Below, piece by piece: positions 1 to 16,539 of a stretch of 41,302 bases of DNA. This DNA comes from a virus (Duplodnaviria; Caudoviricetes), in IMG/VR virus record IMGVR_UViG_3300035562_000122, positions 1 to 41,302 of that record, one strand, 5' to 3'. Position numbers and translations under genes: made by a program. A model generated the notes under the pieces. That model was not told the origin of the DNA. It searched no databases and saw only the letters and a list, made by a program, of their open reading frames with translations. Position 1 is the first letter of the stretch; each line of letters opens with the position of its first letter.

Positions 1-399
1 CGGGCATTTCAGCTCGAGGCCGAAATTGTTACTGCAAAGTCCGTCAGGGGAGCACGCGGTACGCATGCTCTCGTCACGGAACAAGATCGGAGACTCCGTG
101 ACTTTCACGTCAGTAGTGAACTCGAAGAGGGTGCGGGCGTCTTCCTCATACTGTTTGCCCCATGCCAGCGCCTTGGCGTTAACCTCTGGCGCGACGCCGG
201 TGCATACCTCGGCGAGCAGGGTATGGAAGTAGGACATTTTCATGCCCGTCCATTTGGTGCCGGAGCGCGGCTTGGAAATGACGTTATGCACTTCAGAGGC
301 AGTAATGACGCCAAGGCGCAGCCGGTGCCACGCCTCATCACCCTGTTGGATAGTGGTTACGTCAATGCCGGTTTGGGCAAGGATAATTTCTGGTGTCAT
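1..399 (-). CDS. exo: Lambda-type exonuclease (YqaJ/Red-alpha family), runs off the window edge
   Basis: Manual translation from ATG at 399 gives [47 protein letters not shown]...[20 protein letters not shown], closely matching lambda Exo. Absent from the ORF track because there is no stop in the window. Confidence 0.93.
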
Positions 400-400
400 G

Positions 401-688
401 TCAGCAGTCCTTATGGTCATCCCACGGTCCGAATCCACCCACGTAAACGAAACCTCTCGATGGATCGCTAACATGTGTTTCGCGCTGTAGTCGCTCAATT
501 GAATTTCTGTCAATTGCCGCCTGGCGCATCTCAAGTGACTGATGACCTCTGCGACGACCATATTGCTTCCAATAGGCAGCACATGACTTACTGCAAAACT
601 GTGCCCATCCTCTTTTTCGATCAGCAACGCGGGCCATGAATTTGTCCGGGCAACACTTGCAGGTCACTTCAATGGTTTTCCCAGTCAT
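401..688 (-). CDS. Small Cys-rich putative Zn-finger protein inserted between bet and exo
   Basis: 95-aa ORF with CKCC...FCSKSC motif; ATG overlaps the bet stop (ATGA) and its stop lies 1 nt before the exo ATG. Confidence 0.75.
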
Positions 689-1530
689 GCTGCCGCCTTA
701 GCTTTTTTCTGAAGGAAGTTGAACCCTTTCTGTGCCTCTTCTTCAGAGAGGTCTGACGCCTCAAGAATTGGCCGTTTGAATATGTCGCTGCACACTGGGA
801 GGAAGTCTTGCTCCCAGTCTTTATTCAGCGATGTTAAGAGATCGGTGATCGCCTGAAGCGTTTCTTCGCTTGCTGCTGGTGGAAGTGCTTCTGTGGTGCT
901 GCGCGGGGTGACGTCACGGATATCAACGTCCAGCGATTTGCCTTCCATTTCTTCGGCGGTAGGCTGCTGTCCAATCTCAGGCCATGCCTTACGCAACGCC
1001 TGGGCTTCTGCGCATTTAGCCAGCTGTCCGTATGGGCGCTTTTTCCACATCGCGTTCGGCGCCGTGGTGTCGCGACCGCCGGTGGCGTAGTTTTCAATCC
1101 AGTATTCTTTGGCGCTGAACTCGACTATCTCGCCGCTGGGCATGCGCTTGAAAACGGTGTATTTGCACCACTGAGGGAAGGTAACCTCGACACCAGTAAG
1201 CGTCTGAGTTACGTCGGGCCCGAACTCAGGCTCCCGAGCCCCGGCATAATCGCCGGAACGGTCTGCCTGAATGCGGTAAAGCCCGATGCCCGGCATTACC
1301 ACGTCGCGCCAATCACCTTTACCTGTTTTCGAGTCTTTGACGTACATCGGAACGAGGTGTACAGGCTTGAGCAACGGGTCCAGCTGGCGGGCGCGGCAGT
1401 AATCAAGCGCCATCATTACCGATTCGTCTTTGGCGCCAGGGTAGATGCTATTCTTCAGCGCACTCCAGGTGGAGACGTCGACACCTATCTCCTGAAGCGA
1501 ACTTACTGTGATTGTTAATTCGTTTTCCAT
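685..1530 (-). CDS. bet: Phage single-strand annealing recombinase (Bet/RecT family)
   Basis: YCRARQLDPLLKPVHLVP, GIGLYRIQADRSG and MWKKRPYGQLAKCAEAQALRKAWP motifs; upstream of exo. Start set at ATG 1530 after a GAGGGG SD. Confidence 0.9.
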   Translation of the reverse strand: MENELTITVSSLQEIGVDVSTWSALKNSIYPGAKDESVMMALDYCRARQLDPLLKPVHLVPMYVKDSKTGKGDWRDVVMPGIGLYRIQADRSGDYAGAREPEFGPDVTQTLTGVEVTFPQWCKYTVFKRMPSGEIVEFSAKEYWIENYATGGRDTTAPNAMWKKRPYGQLAKCAEAQALRKAWPEIGQQPTAEEMEGKSLDVDIRDVTPRSTTEALPPAASEETLQAITDLLTSLNKDWEQDFLPVCSDIFKRPILEASDLSEEEAQKGFNFLQKKAKAAA

Positions 1531-1548
1531 CGTTAATCCCCTCAAAAA

Positions 1549-1833
1549 TTAAAACGGGCAGCCGGTACGGTGTTCCCAGTCGTATTCAGCCTGGGCGTAC
1601 GCAACTGCCGAAATGAAATCGTTGTAGGCCTCACCAGCTTTATCACTGCGAAGCCCTTCGTAAGGAAGAGGGCCAGTCTGTAAAGATAAATAGAACAGTT
1701 GAATCTGATCTTTCGGCATCGTGGAGAGGATTGCTTTCGCCCGGTCGTCTACCCACCTCTCTTTCTCGTCGGTGAGTTGCTGCTCTACCCAGCGCCGATC
1801 TTCGATGCGGTCGTAAGTGAGGTATGCGTTCAT
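1549..1833 (-). CDS. Probable Gam-like host nuclease inhibitor (positional)
   Basis: 94-aa acidic protein directly upstream of bet; N-terminus MNAYLTYDRIE resembles lambda Gam MNAYYIQDRLE, while the rest is divergent. Confidence 0.55.
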   Translation of the reverse strand: MNAYLTYDRIEDRRWVEQQLTDEKERWVDDRAKAILSTMPKDQIQLFYLSLQTGPLPYEGLRSDKAGEAYNDFISAVAYAQAEYDWEHRTGCPF

Positions 1834-1840
1834 GGTTGCC

Positions 1841-2809
1841 TCAATATTTGATGTGCGCGTCCTGCACTTTGCCGCCAGCGATCGCCAGCAGTGCTTTCTG
1901 CGCGAATTCTTCGGGGATGCCCTGATCTATAAGGTCGGCGATAACGCGACGGTTGACGGTGCGGCGGTGCTCTTTGTCTGCGGCGCGGCGCGCTTCTTCT
2001 TCCGCTTTACGCCGCTCTTCAGCCAGGCGGGCGGCTTCTGCCTCTTCCAGGCGGAGGCGCTCGGCGGCAACGGCTTCTTCTTTTTCGCGTCGTGCACGCT
2101 CTTCCGCTTCCTGCTTCTCACGTGCTGCACGCTGTTCCGCTTCAATGCGCTGGCGCTCCGCCAGATCAGCGCGGGCTTTCTCTTCGGCTTCACGGCGCGC
2201 TGCGGCTTCAATCTCTGCTTTGTGCTTAGCTTCGGCATCACGGCGGGCTTGTTCTGCCGCTTCGCGCTTAATGCGATCTTCGTGCTCACGCTGTGCCTGT
2301 TCCGCCTGGCGGCGCTGCTCTTCGCGGTCACGGTCAAACTTGTCATTCATCAGCAGAGCCATTTCGTGGTCTGCCTCGATCTGCGCGGCTCGCTGGCGGT
2401 CGAACTCTCCGTTCATCTCCAGCGCTTCGGCGTGCAGCGCGTTCATGGCTTCTTCAGTCTTAATGCGTTCCTGCTCGGCTTCCCATTCGGTGAGTGGGCG
2501 GCGGGTCGCGTCGCGCAGCTCGTCGCAGGCATCAACGAAACGCTTAATTTCGGCCTCAGCCGGACGCACAGCTTCTTTCAGGCGCTTCAGGTATTCACGG
2601 CCCGGCTTTTCGATTGCAGTCTTACTGCGGGACACCTGCGCTGCCAGTGAGGCGACACGGTCACGACCTTTCTTCGTGGACAGGTCCGGCACTTCGTTCA
2701 CTGCAAGGCGGATCTGCTCGAGGTAAGCATCAAGGCAGCCAGATACGTAAAGCACTGGCGCCTGCTCCGGCTTGATTTCGATGACAGTTAAGTCCGTTAC
2801 TTCGCTCAT
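1841..2809 (-). CDS. Conserved phage coiled-coil protein (E/A/R-rich), function unknown
   Basis: AGGAG SD before ATG 2809 (MSEVTDL...); long charged helical repeats and no TM segment. Confidence 0.8.
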   Translation of the reverse strand: MSEVTDLTVIEIKPEQAPVLYVSGCLDAYLEQIRLAVNEVPDLSTKKGRDRVASLAAQVSRSKTAIEKPGREYLKRLKEAVRPAEAEIKRFVDACDELRDATRRPLTEWEAEQERIKTEEAMNALHAEALEMNGEFDRQRAAQIEADHEMALLMNDKFDRDREEQRRQAEQAQREHEDRIKREAAEQARRDAEAKHKAEIEAAARREAEEKARADLAERQRIEAEQRAAREKQEAEERARREKEEAVAAERLRLEEAEAARLAEERRKAEEEARRAADKEHRRTVNRRVIADLIDQGIPEEFAQKALLAIAGGKVQDAHIKY

Positions 2810-2879
2810 GGTTTCTCCTGAAATTTGGATGTGCAGATCCCGCCCGCAGAAAGCCAGGCCGATCGGTTGAATAGGGTGG

Positions 2880-3092
2880 TTAGTGCTGGATAGGGTTTCC
2901 GTGACCGTCGAGCAGTACGTCAATCATCACGCAGTCACTGAGGCGGATGATTTCGGCGTCGGTGTGCAGGTACACGCATTTGCGCTCTTGGATGACCGCT
3001 GAGACACGATAGGTGCGCCCCTTATGCATCGCCATCATTCCCGGCGTTAAGCACTGGCGAATGAGTGGCGTCGTTCCATAGTGATGCATCAT
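2880..3092 (-). CDS. kilR: KilR-like cell-division (FtsZ) inhibitor
   Basis: HHYGTTPLIRQCLTPG..HKGRTY..V.LDGHGNP parallels Rac prophage KilR (HHFGTDEIPRQCVTPG..HEGRTY); lies in the kil position. Confidence 0.75.
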   Translation of the reverse strand: MMHHYGTTPLIRQCLTPGMMAMHKGRTYRVSAVIQERKCVYLHTDAEIIRLSDCVMIDVLLDGHGNPIQH

Positions 3093-3250
3093 TTTTTACG
3101 CTCCAGTTGCTCAAGGATTCCTGCGATGTGCAGCTGCCAGCGGTTCATGGTTATCTTTTCGCGGGGCTTATCGACTGAAACGAGCTGCCAGTGGTGGCCA
3201 TCTGCCATTTTTTTGATGGTGTACTGCTTGCTGTTGTGGGTGACTGTCAT
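3089..3250 (-). CDS. Small hypothetical early protein (53 aa)
   Basis: GAGGA SD before ATG 3250 (MTVTHNSKQY...); abuts the kilR start. Confidence 0.7.
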   Translation of the reverse strand: MTVTHNSKQYTIKKMADGHHWQLVSVDKPREKITMNRWQLHIAGILEQLERKK

Positions 3251-3341
3251 AAATCCTCTTGGCCTTATCGTGGCGAACGGAACGTTGATACATTGCATCC
3301 GGCGCATTCGCCGTAATAGGGCGGTGGATGGCCGCCCGGTT

Positions 3342-3378
3342 CATAACTAAGCCGCCTCTGTGAAGCGACTGAGGTATG
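3342..3378 (-). other. Internal-loop hairpin, RNase III-like processing site candidate
   Basis: Minus strand CATA-CCTC-AGTCGCTTC-ACA-GAGGCGGCT-TAGT-TATG: 9-bp stem, 4x4 internal loop and 4-bp lower stem. Confidence 0.5.
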
Positions 3379-3385
3379 AGGCATT

Positions 3386-3406
3386 AAAAAACACGCCGGA
3401 GCGGGT
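3386..3406 (-). terminator. Weak intrinsic terminator (tL-like)
   Basis: ACCCGC-TCCG-GCGTGT-TTTTT on the minus strand with one stem mismatch; follows the 3406..3681 ORF. Confidence 0.4.
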
Positions 3407-3681
3407 CAGTCTTCGTTACCTTCACCAACGAGCTGAGTAAGCTCAGCTTGGGAAGGTTTTTGCCAGTTGAGTATCTGGCCAGTTTCAATATCGATATCCA
3501 GTTCGAGATAGTCACCGTAGTGCTGGCCAGGGAAGCAATCCGGAACATATTCATCTTCAATGCTACGAACAGTGTTCCCATCAGCATCGATGATCTCAGC
3601 CGTAAATCTGTCGCACACCTTAATGCAGGTCTTGATGCGCTTTACGTCTACATCAACCTTCACGCATAATTCAGTTTTCAT
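3406..3681 (-). CDS. Acidic hypothetical phage protein (91 aa), first ORF of the PL operon
   Basis: GAGGGTAAGGGG upstream of ATG 3681; YVPDCFPGQHYGDYLELDIDIETGQILNW motif. Confidence 0.75.
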   Translation of the reverse strand: MKTELCVKVDVDVKRIKTCIKVCDRFTAEIIDADGNTVRSIEDEYVPDCFPGQHYGDYLELDIDIETGQILNWQKPSQAELTQLVGEGNED

Positions 3682-3689
3682 CCCCTTAC

Positions 3690-4394
3690 CCTCTGTAGTT
3701 ACCCGCTGATGCGGGAGAAATGCTTTGGTCGGTGTGGTGGACTGGCACTGAGTCGCCACTCTCACTTACTTCCTGAGCGCCCTGTTTCTGTATTGGCAAA
3801 CAACAATCTGCCCAGCCGGTTTTCAGGTCTTATCACACTGCTAGCGTTGCACCTCGCTTGAGGACACCGCCACCACACCCCGAAGCACTTCGCCACACTC
3901 TCGCAGTGGCCGCGCTCATGCCCTTGAGTCTCTGTCGCTCATCGCCGCTCATAACCGGTGTGCATCTGGCTTTTACACTGCTTGACCGGCATACCCTTTT
4001 CCTCAGTTAACCCTGACCAGCGGTATGTCGCAGTTCGGACCTGCGTCTGGCTCTCGCATGGAGACTCGGGGCCACATAATGACTGTGGCGTGTACGGGCG
4101 GTCTTACCGCTTTACTGCTTCATGGCTCACCTCCAGGTCATTTGGGGTTGAAAGATATTCGCGCTTCGCACCTCTCTTCCTGCCAGTGTTGCCCGTTCTC
4201 ACGCCTTCATCGCTCTCGCGAGGGGATAGCCTTCTCACCGACCGGTTCGCCGCCGGTGATACGCCGCATTTGTGCGTAGGGGTCTAAACAGGATTACTGA
4301 GTGCTGTTCCGACTTTGCATGTTGTTAATGAGCAGCCTGACTTGCGTCTGGCGCGGCTTAACTCTGGTGGCCGCATCGCTGTGTTGTTGCGATG
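3690..4394 (-). ncRNA. Long structured PL leader RNA (several closed multi-stem domains, boxA-like element)
   Basis: No credible long ORF on the transcribed strand. Long-range stems at 3731-3740/3870-3879, 3891-3897/4084-4090, 3906-3911/4070-4075 and 3926-3932/4061-4067. TGCTCATTAACA boxA-like sequence near 4323-4334. Confidence 0.6.
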
Positions 4395-4399
4395 GATTT

Positions 4400-4462
4400 A
4401 TAATAGCGATGAGTATTGTTTATAGCAATACGTATTGATATTGAATAATAGCAATTGGTATT
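4400..4462 (-). promoter_or_regulatory. PL promoter and OL1-3 operators
   Basis: Minus strand TTGCTA-17-TATTAT. 16-bp imperfect palindromes AATAGCGATGAGTATT (4402-4417), TATAGCAATACGTATT (4421-4436) and AATAGCAATTGGTATT (4447-4462). Confidence 0.8.
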
Positions 4463-4558
4463 AAAGTGTTGATAGCTAAAGGAATTTAATTTGTTTTTTT
4501 CGAGTGATTTAGATGTGTTTAGTGCTTTGTAGTGGCGATGGTCTTGGCGAAGGGCAAT

Positions 4559-4584
4559 AAAAAACCCAGCGCTATGGCTGGGTT
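4559..4584 (-). terminator. Intrinsic terminator of the cI-lipoprotein transcript
   Basis: AACCCAGC/GCTGGGTT stem followed by a T-run on the minus strand. Confidence 0.8.
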
Positions 4585-4602
4585 ATTCATGGATGTTAAG
4601 AT

Positions 4603-5085
4603 TTATCGGGTAACCATTACAGTATTGTTCTGTCCTGGTTTGACGGATGCGGCAGACATCAGCGCGCCGCCTTCAGTCACCAGCCCGTAGGTGGATGGGC
4701 GCATCCAGGTAACGCTGGTCTGAACGTAATATTCTCCAGGGGCAATATTGTCGAACTCAAACTTACCCTGCGCATCAGCAATCGTGACTTTCTCATACTT
4801 CGCTGCGCGCATATCCTCTTTGTTGCAACGAACTGGTCCCATACAGGTGGCGAACTGGAAGTCGGTATAGGATGTCTTCGGCATTAAGACTACCTGGCTA
4901 CCAGCTGCGACTTTTACGTCACCACCCATAGTCTTGAGGAATGCTTGGCCAGTCAATTTTTCAGCGCCGTCGAGTTTCAACTTTTCATATTCTGCCTGCG
5001 GGAATGGTGGCAGGTTTACCGGTTTTGGAATTGATACGCATCCAGAGAGAAGTGCTGCTGTCGCTGCAATTAATAGCTTTTTCAT
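4603..5085 (-). CDS. Lipoprotein with beta-sandwich (carboxypeptidase-regulatory-like) domain, rex position
   Basis: MKKLLIAATAALLSG|C lipobox, AAGGA SD, and an ADAQGKFEFDNIAPGEYYV Ig-like motif. Confidence 0.8.
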   Translation of the reverse strand: MKKLLIAATAALLSGCVSIPKPVNLPPFPQAEYEKLKLDGAEKLTGQAFLKTMGGDVKVAAGSQVVLMPKTSYTDFQFATCMGPVRCNKEDMRAAKYEKVTIADAQGKFEFDNIAPGEYYVQTSVTWMRPSTYGLVTEGGALMSAASVKPGQNNTVMVTR

Positions 5086-14188: not shown

Positions 14189-14241
14189 TCATGTAAATCT
14201 GATATCGTCGCCATAGCTTCGTAGGTCGACAAAGAATTAAG

Positions 14242-14266
14242 AGCCTCGCATCGTGCGGGGCTTTTT
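14242..14266 (+). terminator. tR' intrinsic terminator
   Basis: AGCCTCGCA-TCG-TGCGGGGCT followed by a T-run. Confidence 0.85.
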
Positions 14267-14273
14267 CGTTTCA

Positions 14274-14348
14274 GGGTCAGAAGCACAGCGGTTGTGCGTT
14301 CGGCTGTTAACCGAATGGTCGAAGGTTCGAATCCTTCCTGTCCCGCCA
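14274..14348 (+). tRNA. tRNA-Asn (GTT)
   Basis: Cloverleaf: GGGTCAG/CTGTCCC acceptor (one T-T mismatch), GCAC/GTGC D-arm, TTCGG-CTGTTAA-CCGAA anticodon arm, GAAGG-TTCGAAT-CCTTC T-arm, G73 and encoded CCA. Confidence 0.9.
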
Positions 14349-15861: not shown

Positions 15862-16014
15862 GTATCCGCATTTCACCGCGCACCGCAGCGCATTCAAACC
15901 ACGTCGAACCATACCCTTTGAAATGAGCCTTTGAGGAAGTCAGTTAGTGCTGGCGAGCCTCGACGGGCTGATTTCCTATGCGGCAAAGGTTCATCTCAAA
16001 GAAAGGTACACGCT

Positions 16015-16539
16015 ATGAATAATCCGTCAGTTATTCCGGCCTTCGACTTCCGAGAAATGGTGCAAGCCAAAAACGGAGAGGTCGTTACCACATCCAGAAA
16101 AGTTGCCACGTACTTCGGCAAGCGACACGGCGATGTGCTCAGGAAAATCGAGCAGGTTAAGACCGATTGCTCGAGTGAGTTTAGCCAACGCAATTTTGCG
16201 TCGGCTGATTATATCGATGAGCAGGGTAAGGTTCGCCCGATGTACAACCTGACGAAAGATGGCTGGATCATGGTTGTGATGGGGTTCACCGGGAAAGCCG
16301 CTGCGGCTATCAAAGAAAGCTACATTTCAGCGTTCAACTGGATGTCTGAGCAACTTAGCCGTCGTCTTGCCATGGGCGAAGAAATGCAACACCGCTACGC
16401 CATCAAAGAAACGCGCTCAAAGCTGAAAGGCACGATCGGCAGCCGGTTGATGAATGAGCGGAAGAAAGAGAAGCGCGTTCTGGATCTCGAGCATGATCAC
16501 ATCATGCAGGTAACGCAGCCCGAGTTGCTTATTGGCTGA
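16015..16539 (+). CDS. rha: Rha-family phage regulatory protein
   Basis: TTSRKVATYFGKRHGDVLRKIE...YNLTKDGWIMVVMGFTGKAA..KESYISAFN. Confidence 0.9.
   Translation: MNNPSVIPAFDFREMVQAKNGEVVTTSRKVATYFGKRHGDVLRKIEQVKTDCSSEFSQRNFASADYIDEQGKVRPMYNLTKDGWIMVVMGFTGKAAAAIKESYISAFNWMSEQLSRRLAMGEEMQHRYAIKETRSKLKGTIGSRLMNERKKEKRVLDLEHDHIMQVTQPELLIG

What the first reader, a model, noticed from the sequence alone, without database searches (positions are those of the whole stretch)
3690..4394. N-less PL leader of ~700 nt built from tandem closed RNA domains: candidate undescribed ncRNA or antitermination system
Seen: between PL (4400-4428, minus) and the first real ORF (ATG 3681) there is no N-like Arg-rich ORF. 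The leader opens with short hairpins (CATCGC/GCGATG, CGGC/GCCG) and a boxA-like TGCTCATTAACA. At least three self-contained domains follow. Domain A (~4293-4178) has TCACCG/CGGTGA and TCGC-GAGA-GCGA (GNRA loop). Domain B (4090-3891) is closed by three nested stems (CGCCACA, GTGGCC, GAGTCTC) around internal hairpins CGCAG/CTGCG, CATACC/GGTATG and CCGGT/ACCGG. Domain C (3887-3721) is closed by a 10-bp perfect stem plus an 8-bp extension. Knowledge: lambda needs N/nut here, whereas HK022 uses cis-acting put RNAs instead. Inference: either RNA-only antitermination or a polycistronic array of 120-200-nt structured RNAs released by processing (sRNAs, protein decoys or anti-defence RNAs). B and C sit 3 nt apart like swappable cassettes.
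Basis: partly seen in the sequence, partly recalled or inferred. Interest (0 to 1): 0.8.

Follow-up and report, generated by a model that had tools for sequence, protein, structure and literature searches.

The report
Three-module RNA leader replacing N
The 700 gene-free bases after this prophage's early-left promoter are three separately swapped folded-RNA modules: one sits where related phages carry the known RNA antiterminator put and likely does a similar job without an N protein, one heads long phage and plasmid operons and likely helps transcribe them, and one is cargo in a lambda-type stem predicted to be cut out as a small RNA.

Summary
Real, with corrections. This is a phi80-type PL leader with no N gene in the prophage. 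Domain A (boxA plus ~150 nt) is homologous to phi80 nutL and covaries. Among 115 leaders sharing the same 5' hairpins, 51 carry boxA+A, 42 carry put, none both, and 0 of 72 checked have a lambda-type N. Domain B is an uncatalogued pseudoknotted ~245-nt family with a start-stop minigene (98 of 114). B also heads plasmid pilus and T4SS operons. Domain C is cargo in the lambda N-leader RNase III stem, a slot holding 28 payload families, some tRNA-shaped. No function was tested. Against: A is single-copy, its boxA is off-consensus, and no strong left-operon terminator was found. The scan reported A and B before on other DNA; the put/A exclusivity count and the tRNA register of the payloads were not in the notes I saw.

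The parts
4400..4428 (-). PL promoter (-35 4428-4423, -10 4405-4400); start probably near 4393
   Evidence: same position as annotated phi80 pL and HK639 pL; start inferred by alignment
4335..4394 (-). Three short 5' hairpins; related to the 5' block shared by phi80 and HK639 leaders
4323..4334 (-). boxA-like element, one mismatch (position 5) from GYTCTTTAANA
   Evidence: boxA-like sequence upstream of A in 203 of 203 loci; consensus from PMC5725501
4161..4313 (-). Domain A, homolog of phi80 nutL RNA: hairpin 4313-4282, junction closed by 4281-4279 with 4194-4192, 'nutL core' hairpin 4276-4265, stem 4259-4235, GNRA hairpin 4221-4210
   Evidence: model R2 match 4156-4348; sub-coordinates read by hand
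4112..4134 (-). Shine-Dalgarno plus start-stop minigene (Met-Lys-Gln-stop, 4123-4112)
   Evidence: 98 of 114 unique B loci vs 20 of 1469 random and 71 of 2280 shuffled windows
3891..4110 (-). Domain B: multi-helix RNA with pseudoknot (4027-4022 with 3995-3990) and 3' hairpin with a T-loop-like loop
3721..3887 (-). Lambda N-leader-type closing stem, predicted RNase III site
   Evidence: arms match the lambda N-leader stem; cleavage in lambda recalled, not tested here
3726..3879 (-). Domain C payload, 154 nt, 10-bp terminal stem and 3' ACCA if cut as in lambda (family F1, 48 loci)
3682..3715 (-). Junction hairpin and SD shared with phi80, HK639 and HK225
3406..3681 (-). 91-aa acidic ORF in the slot where phi80 has its 'N' gene; not N-like
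3386..3406 (-). Weak hairpin plus T run at the position of phi80 tL1A
   Evidence: below threshold

Best explanation
The leader is a mosaic of three independently exchanged non-coding modules, in which boxA plus domain A likely loads host Nus factors onto RNA polymerase without an N protein, domain B likely loads a ribosome and suppresses polarity in cis, and domain C is predicted to be cut out by RNase III as a small CCA-ended RNA. Shown: the modules exist, A and B covary, all three reshuffle; A and put never co-occur in the sampled slot; no lambda-type N accompanies A; B carries a minigene and heads long operons; the C stem holds many unrelated payloads. Inferred: (1) A folds co-transcriptionally and stabilises NusB/E on an off-consensus boxA, as N-boxB does in lambda, giving Rho-resistant transcription through the untranslated leader and left operon (about 0.55). 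(2) A ribosome on the start-stop codons plus the B fold keeps the elongation complex coupled or protects the RNA at the head of long operons (about 0.45 for a cis role). (3) RNase III cuts the C stem, frees the SD of the first ORF and releases the 154-nt payload (about 0.75 for cleavage; the payload's target is not identified, a decoy or pairing role is a guess).
For: A: homologous to the 278-bp phi80 nutL region, which spans boxA and A; covariation; boxA-like element upstream in 203 of 203 A loci; repressor gene upstream on the same strand in 59 of 65. Of 115 leaders picked only by the shared 5' hairpins: 51 boxA+A, 42 put without boxA, 0 both, 22 other; 0 of 72 with at least 1.2 kb downstream have lambda-type N. 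Of 126 unique A leaders, 0 have lambda-type N within 2 kb, 5 phi80 N, 8 a Proteus/Providencia Arg-rich ORF (12 leaders in all); 55 first-ORF families among 122. Of 90 cassette contexts: A with N 0, A without N 44, N without A 24, neither 22. No phrog_271 in 5 of 5 whole A-type records. B: 94.0% paired vs 81.2% shuffled, 23 of 36 pairs change on both sides; minigene 98 of 114; on 22 plasmid records, and 4 of the 5 opened lie co-oriented upstream of pil or VirB operons, the fifth in a prophage late region. C: arms match lambda; 28 payload families; one is called tRNA-Ser by ARAGORN; an RNA from the same slot of P22 (P22B) was detected in infected cells (PMC13397905 table). In phage VT2phi_272 the same leader continues into Rfam isrK and C4.
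Against: No function was measured. A occurs once per genome with no rightward copy in the window and 5 of 5 records, unlike nut. The window's boxA departs from consensus at position 5, and 113 of 203 A loci (the phi80 type) carry a C4-to-T change at the position PMC5725501 marks as critical (their inactive mutant was the double C4T/T6C). No strong intrinsic terminator was found in the left operon 1-3700, so the need rests on Rho sites not located here. phi80 genetics assigns a role to its N gene (recalled). B coexists with A and with true N, and in late leaders it lies after a terminator-like hairpin. The B alignment A2 was fitted to the structure, and its 3' 27 nt are invariant by my search pattern. 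Related sequences inflate all counts. The P22B ends lie 17 nt inside and 11 nt beyond the predicted cassette ends. The 3' CCA was part of my search pattern and pairs within the stem. C shows little covariation.
Confidence: 0.55

Rival explanations
1. All three domains are trans-acting RNAs (sRNAs, decoys, tRNA mimics) in a polycistronic array; boxA alone shields the array from Rho as in rRNA operons, and A is just the first cargo.
For: Slot 3 holds many payloads, some tRNA-shaped; isrK and C4 follow A in VT2phi_272; 60 of 114 B loci are followed by the 5' arm of the C-type stem, which would give a defined 3' end; A is single-copy; rrn antitermination depends mainly on boxA (PMC8632103 passage).
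Against: A is tied to boxA and to the first slot and excludes put, which cargo need not do; B sits at the heads of plasmid transfer operons.
Confidence: 0.25
2. A is the binding site of an unrecognised N-like protein (phi80 N, the Providencia Arg-rich ORF or a gene elsewhere in the genome), so the system is a protein-RNA antiterminator with a large nut.
For: phi80 records annotate both nutL and N; A contains a boxB-like hairpin; 8 of 126 leaders have an Arg-rich ORF downstream; small divergent N proteins are easy to miss.
Against: 114 of 126 A leaders have neither candidate within 2 kb; a phi80 N homolog also occurs in the locus of yong1, which has a lambda-type N, and in a put leader; none of 44 N-slot proteins scanned matches an N family.
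Confidence: 0.13
3. The modules are selfish or neutral hitch-hikers at a recombination hotspot, and the conserved arms are only exchange linkers.
For: Extreme mosaicism; lambda lacks A and B; weak single-sequence z-scores.
Against: Compensatory changes across many helices, a conserved minigene with a variable peptide, and fixed positions relative to promoters and operons.
Confidence: 0.07

Closest known systems
phi80 nutL and N region (M11919, NC_021190)
   Same: Same order: pL, 5' hairpins, boxA, domain A (~80% identity), closing stem, junction hairpin, SD, ORF, tL1 position, kil.
   Different: B is inserted, the payload differs, and the N slot holds an unrelated 91-aa gene. The records mark only a boxA, a 12-nt core and a 278-bp span, not a folded ~150-nt RNA.
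put RNAs of HK022 and HK639
   Same: Same slot after related 5' hairpins in leaders without lambda-type N; mutually exclusive with A in the sample.
   Different: No sequence match. put is a ~65-nt double hairpin that binds the beta' zinc-binding domain (PMC8632103, PMC9378689 passages) and had no boxA in 42 of 42; A is a multi-helix junction always preceded by boxA and lacks a rightward copy.
Lambda, P22 N leader with RNase III hairpin
   Same: Near-identical stem arms just upstream of the first SD.
   Different: No N and no nutR-like copy; the interior is one of 28 exchangeable payload families rather than a fixed loop.
rrn leader antitermination (boxB-boxA-boxC, Nus factors, SuhB, S4)
   Same: Hairpin then boxA ahead of long structured RNA with RNase III stems, no phage protein.
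   Different: boxA is off-consensus, no boxC was looked for, and a large conserved RNA follows boxA.
conAn of Gram-positive conjugative elements, EAR, ops-RfaH
   Same: Cis elements that help transcribe long transfer or biosynthetic operons; B heads pil and VirB operons.
   Different: conAn is described as bipartite (abstract); B has a minigene and no partner gene identified. The EAR and ops comparisons are recalled; no Rfam match.

Membership tests
put antiterminator RNA | Sequence and two-stem similarity to HK022/HK639 put | tested here: not met
   blastn of HK639 putL against the leader and window gave only chance hits
put antiterminator RNA | Acts in cis through the beta' zinc-binding domain, Nus-independent | not testable with these tools
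   needs reporter assays; the constant boxA argues for Nus use
lambda-type nut/N | Cognate Arg-rich N protein in the genome | tested here: not met
lambda-type nut/N | Paired left and right sites | tested here: not met
   single match in the window and in 5 of 5 records
phi80-type nutL | Homology and position after pL with boxA and core hairpin | tested here: met
phi80-type nutL | phi80 N gene downstream | tested here: not met
   present in 5 of 126 A leaders
Nus-binding boxA | Perfect match to GYTCTTTAANA | tested here: not met
   one mismatch at position 5; perfect matches occur in a minority of A loci
Lambda N-leader RNase III stem | Conserved stem arms just 5' of the first SD | tested here: met
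Lambda N-leader RNase III stem | Cleavage by RNase III | not testable with these tools
   no RNA run available; lambda cleavage recalled
tRNA (domain C payload) | Cloverleaf called by ARAGORN or Rfam | tested here: not met
   window payload not called; payload F13 in L036 called by ARAGORN but below the Rfam threshold
Any Rfam 15 family (A, B, C) | Score at gathering threshold or a significant E-value | tested here: not met
   (best E 5.3 in 3200-4700)

The most novel reading that the evidence does not exclude
boxA plus domain A is a third class of lambdoid early antiterminator, an RNA that replaces N while recruiting host Nus factors; domain B is a ribosome-loading RNA that drives long operons in phages and conjugative plasmids; and the textbook lambda N-leader RNase III hairpin is a tRNA-derived expression slot from which lambdoid phages release dozens of different CCA-ended small RNAs.
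Probability: 0.3. Interest if true: 0.9.

Novelty: new variant of a known kind. Interest (0 to 1): 0.72.

Why it matters
How N-less lambdoid phages transcribe their early operons is usually put down to put by default (PMC12315714 passage). Here the commonest occupant of that slot is a different, boxA-linked RNA that also lies in laboratory phi80, so the question can be tested directly in E. coli K-12. Domain B would be a new cis-acting RNA shared by phage and plasmid transfer operons. The payload catalogue suggests that a long-studied processing stem releases many uncharacterised small RNAs.

Tried and rejected
Led nowhere: no RNA holder listed among sequencing runs, none laid; order-wide genome search, 1 of 401, the seed genome only; GTDB pattern scan, 6 Enterobacter loci; the metagenome collection was not scanned. 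Dropped rows: 4 of 32 payload clusters (F4, F28, F30, F32) judged false by eye; chance matches to the 15-nt A seed were filtered by a second motif; 5 of 120 leaders were too short. Left open: whether the plasmid B copies keep the minigene was not checked. Literature: 10 searches found no description of A's fold, B or the payload families; the original phi80 and lambda N-leader papers are not held, so prior description there cannot be excluded; no supplements were read, and those of viral structured-RNA surveys may list these motifs.

Full report
Setting. The window is a lambdoid provirus of 41,302 bases, 88% complete by CheckV. Repressor (5864-5124), cro, cII, kil, gam and a single-strand annealing gene are in the usual order. 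The flagged stretch runs from a promoter-like site at 4428-4400 to a 91-aa ORF at 3681. The closest named relatives are phi80 and HK225. Rfam has no match in it.

No N. The N family phrog_271 has 0 matches in the window, and tblastn with 8 N or N-slot proteins gives best E 0.11. The 91-aa ORF sits exactly where phi80 has its annotated N, behind the same junction hairpin and SD, but is acidic, has no PHROG family and has 46 homologs without Pfam domains.

Domain A. It is about 80% identical to phi80, where GenBank M11919 annotates a 278-bp nutL covering boxA, A and part of the next cassette. I collected 203 loci (118 unique). All 203 have a boxA-like element just upstream; 113 have the phi80 variant, 30 the TGCTCTTTAACA form and 6 the window's. 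On a plain MAFFT alignment of 26 representatives, 91.8% of cells pair vs 82.8% in shuffles, 12 of 19 pairs change on both sides, and slid controls fall to 27-40%; the 'further pair types' measure did not exceed shuffles. A repressor gene lies upstream on the same strand in 59 of 65 loci. A model of A matches once in the window and once in each of 5 whole records.

What shares A's slot. HK639's leader begins with the same 5' hairpins as phi80's and then carries its annotated putL. I scanned IMG/VR with those hairpins only: of 120 loci, 115 were long enough; 51 had boxA+A, 42 put with no boxA match, none both, 22 something else. None of 72 with at least 1.2 kb downstream had a lambda-type N, 1 had phi80 N. 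In a put-seeded set, 0 of 120 had A, 0 of 120 had the B pattern (45 were short), and 14 had an N- or Nun-like ORF downstream. Of 126 unique A leaders, 0 had lambda-type N within 2 kb, 5 phi80 N and 8 an Arg-rich Proteus/Providencia ORF; first ORFs fell into 55 families, and none of 44 proteins scanned matched an N family. These counts include close relatives, so they show pattern, not independent events. The inference is that boxA+A is an alternative to put and to nut/N. Against it: no rightward copy, off-consensus boxA (PMC5725501 passages), and no strong intrinsic terminator in 1-3700, although phi80 annotates a Rho-dependent tL1B.

Domain B. A 27-nt pattern found 119 IMG/VR stretches (estimated 170), 67 clusters; blastn finds it in 129 of 5426 E. 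coli genomes and 22 plasmid records. A fold with local hairpins, a three-base closing helix and a 3' hairpin reaches 94.0% vs 81.2%, with 23 of 36 pairs changing on both sides (alignment fitted to the model, though the top unbiased mutual-information pairs fall in the same helices). In the long subtype a 6-bp pairing crosses another helix and covaries, giving a pseudoknot; support in the short subtype is weaker. An SD with a start codon and stop within 6 codons precedes B in 98 of 114 unique loci, against 20 of 1469 random and 71 of 2280 shuffled windows; the peptide varies and 16 are pure start-stop. Of 81 contexts: 20 after A, 19 before N, 5 after Q, 6 after a repressor, 31 unclassified. Of 5 plasmid hits opened, 4 lie co-oriented upstream of type IVb pilus or VirB operons and 1 in a prophage late region. 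This favours a cis role at operon heads, but a released RNA is not excluded, since 60 of 114 are followed by the C-type stem arm.

Domain C. Its closing arms match the lambda N-leader stem, which I recall is cut by RNase III; the paper was seen only as a reference title. Searching all loci for this stem gave 85 unique payloads in 146 loci and 32 clusters, 4 dropped as false. The window's payload (48 loci) occurs behind A, behind put and in N-positive leaders with high identity and little covariation. Taken at lambda's register, payloads begin with a 7-10-bp stem and end in purine-CCA (79 of 85), but the CCA was in my pattern and also pairs in the stem. The register is still informative: one 71-nt payload is a complete cloverleaf called tRNA-Ser by ARAGORN, though below the Rfam threshold, and several others carry T-arm-like ends. 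The window's own payload is not a tRNA. In P22, a 96-nt RNA from this slot (P22B, 642 reads per million in infected cells) is tabulated in PMC13397905 (passages and table); its ends do not match the predicted cut sites. In VT2phi_272 the leader continues into Rfam isrK and C4.

Mechanism. Shown: three conserved, reshuffled modules and their co-occurrence patterns. Inferred: boxA+A builds an N-free, Nus-based complex that resists Rho, by analogy with rrn leaders (PMC8632103 passages); B's minigene loads a ribosome and supports read-through or stability in long operons; RNase III releases C and the first SD. Confidence in the whole is 0.55.

Prior knowledge. Papers seen: passages of PMC5725501, PMC9378689, PMC8632103, PMC13397905, PMC12315714 and bioRxiv 2024.10.31.621285 (lambda PreS, from a different place in the left operon); others as listings or abstracts only. 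Ten searches found no description of A's fold, B or the payload families; older phi80 and lambda papers are not held. Earlier notes of this scan reported A-type leaders and the B family on other DNA; they are unchecked AI notes and gave me two leads, the put slot and the plasmid context, both tested here.

Verdict. New variant of a known kind, interest 0.72; a 0.3 chance of the bolder reading at 0.9.

Noticed in passing
L441, L446, L459, L477 and others, just after the match at 1501-1527: A third unnamed ~150-nt RNA behind a boxA-like element fills the same slot as A and put in most of the 22 'other' leaders; further types occur in L453/L506, L479/L507 and L489. No Rfam match in the four scanned.
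   Followed up: partly
L036 1555-1625: A 71-nt tRNA-shaped payload (ARAGORN tRNA-Ser, anticodon tga) sits inside the N-leader-type stem of an A+B leader.
   Followed up: partly
L005 3331-3518 (VT2phi_272): isrK and C4 Rfam matches lie in tandem in the PL leader before a Rha-family gene; domain A occurs in many Stx2a phage records.
   Followed up: no
L008, L088, L192, L196, L237, L608: Homologs of the gene annotated as phi80 N turn up in other contexts, including the yong1 locus, which has a lambda-type N, and a put leader, so its assignment as the cognate antiterminator deserves re-testing.
   Followed up: partly
L009, L023, L180, L210 downstream of A: Proteus/Providencia-type A leaders are followed by a 65-71-aa ORF with an Arg-rich N-terminus and no PHROG family.
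   Followed up: partly
window 14192-14348: isrJ match followed by tRNA-Asn just after the Q-like gene.
   Followed up: no
L006 2600-2680 (RothC): Another closed-stem cassette between B and two tRNA genes contains the same short loop motif as a stem of domain A.
   Followed up: no
L424 about 2920-3000 (HK639): An insert with a tRNA T-arm-like end precedes gene 44.
   Followed up: no
window 15931-16539: An ORF that looks like a Rha-family regulator follows the lysis genes, as in phi80 (not scanned against families).
   Followed up: no
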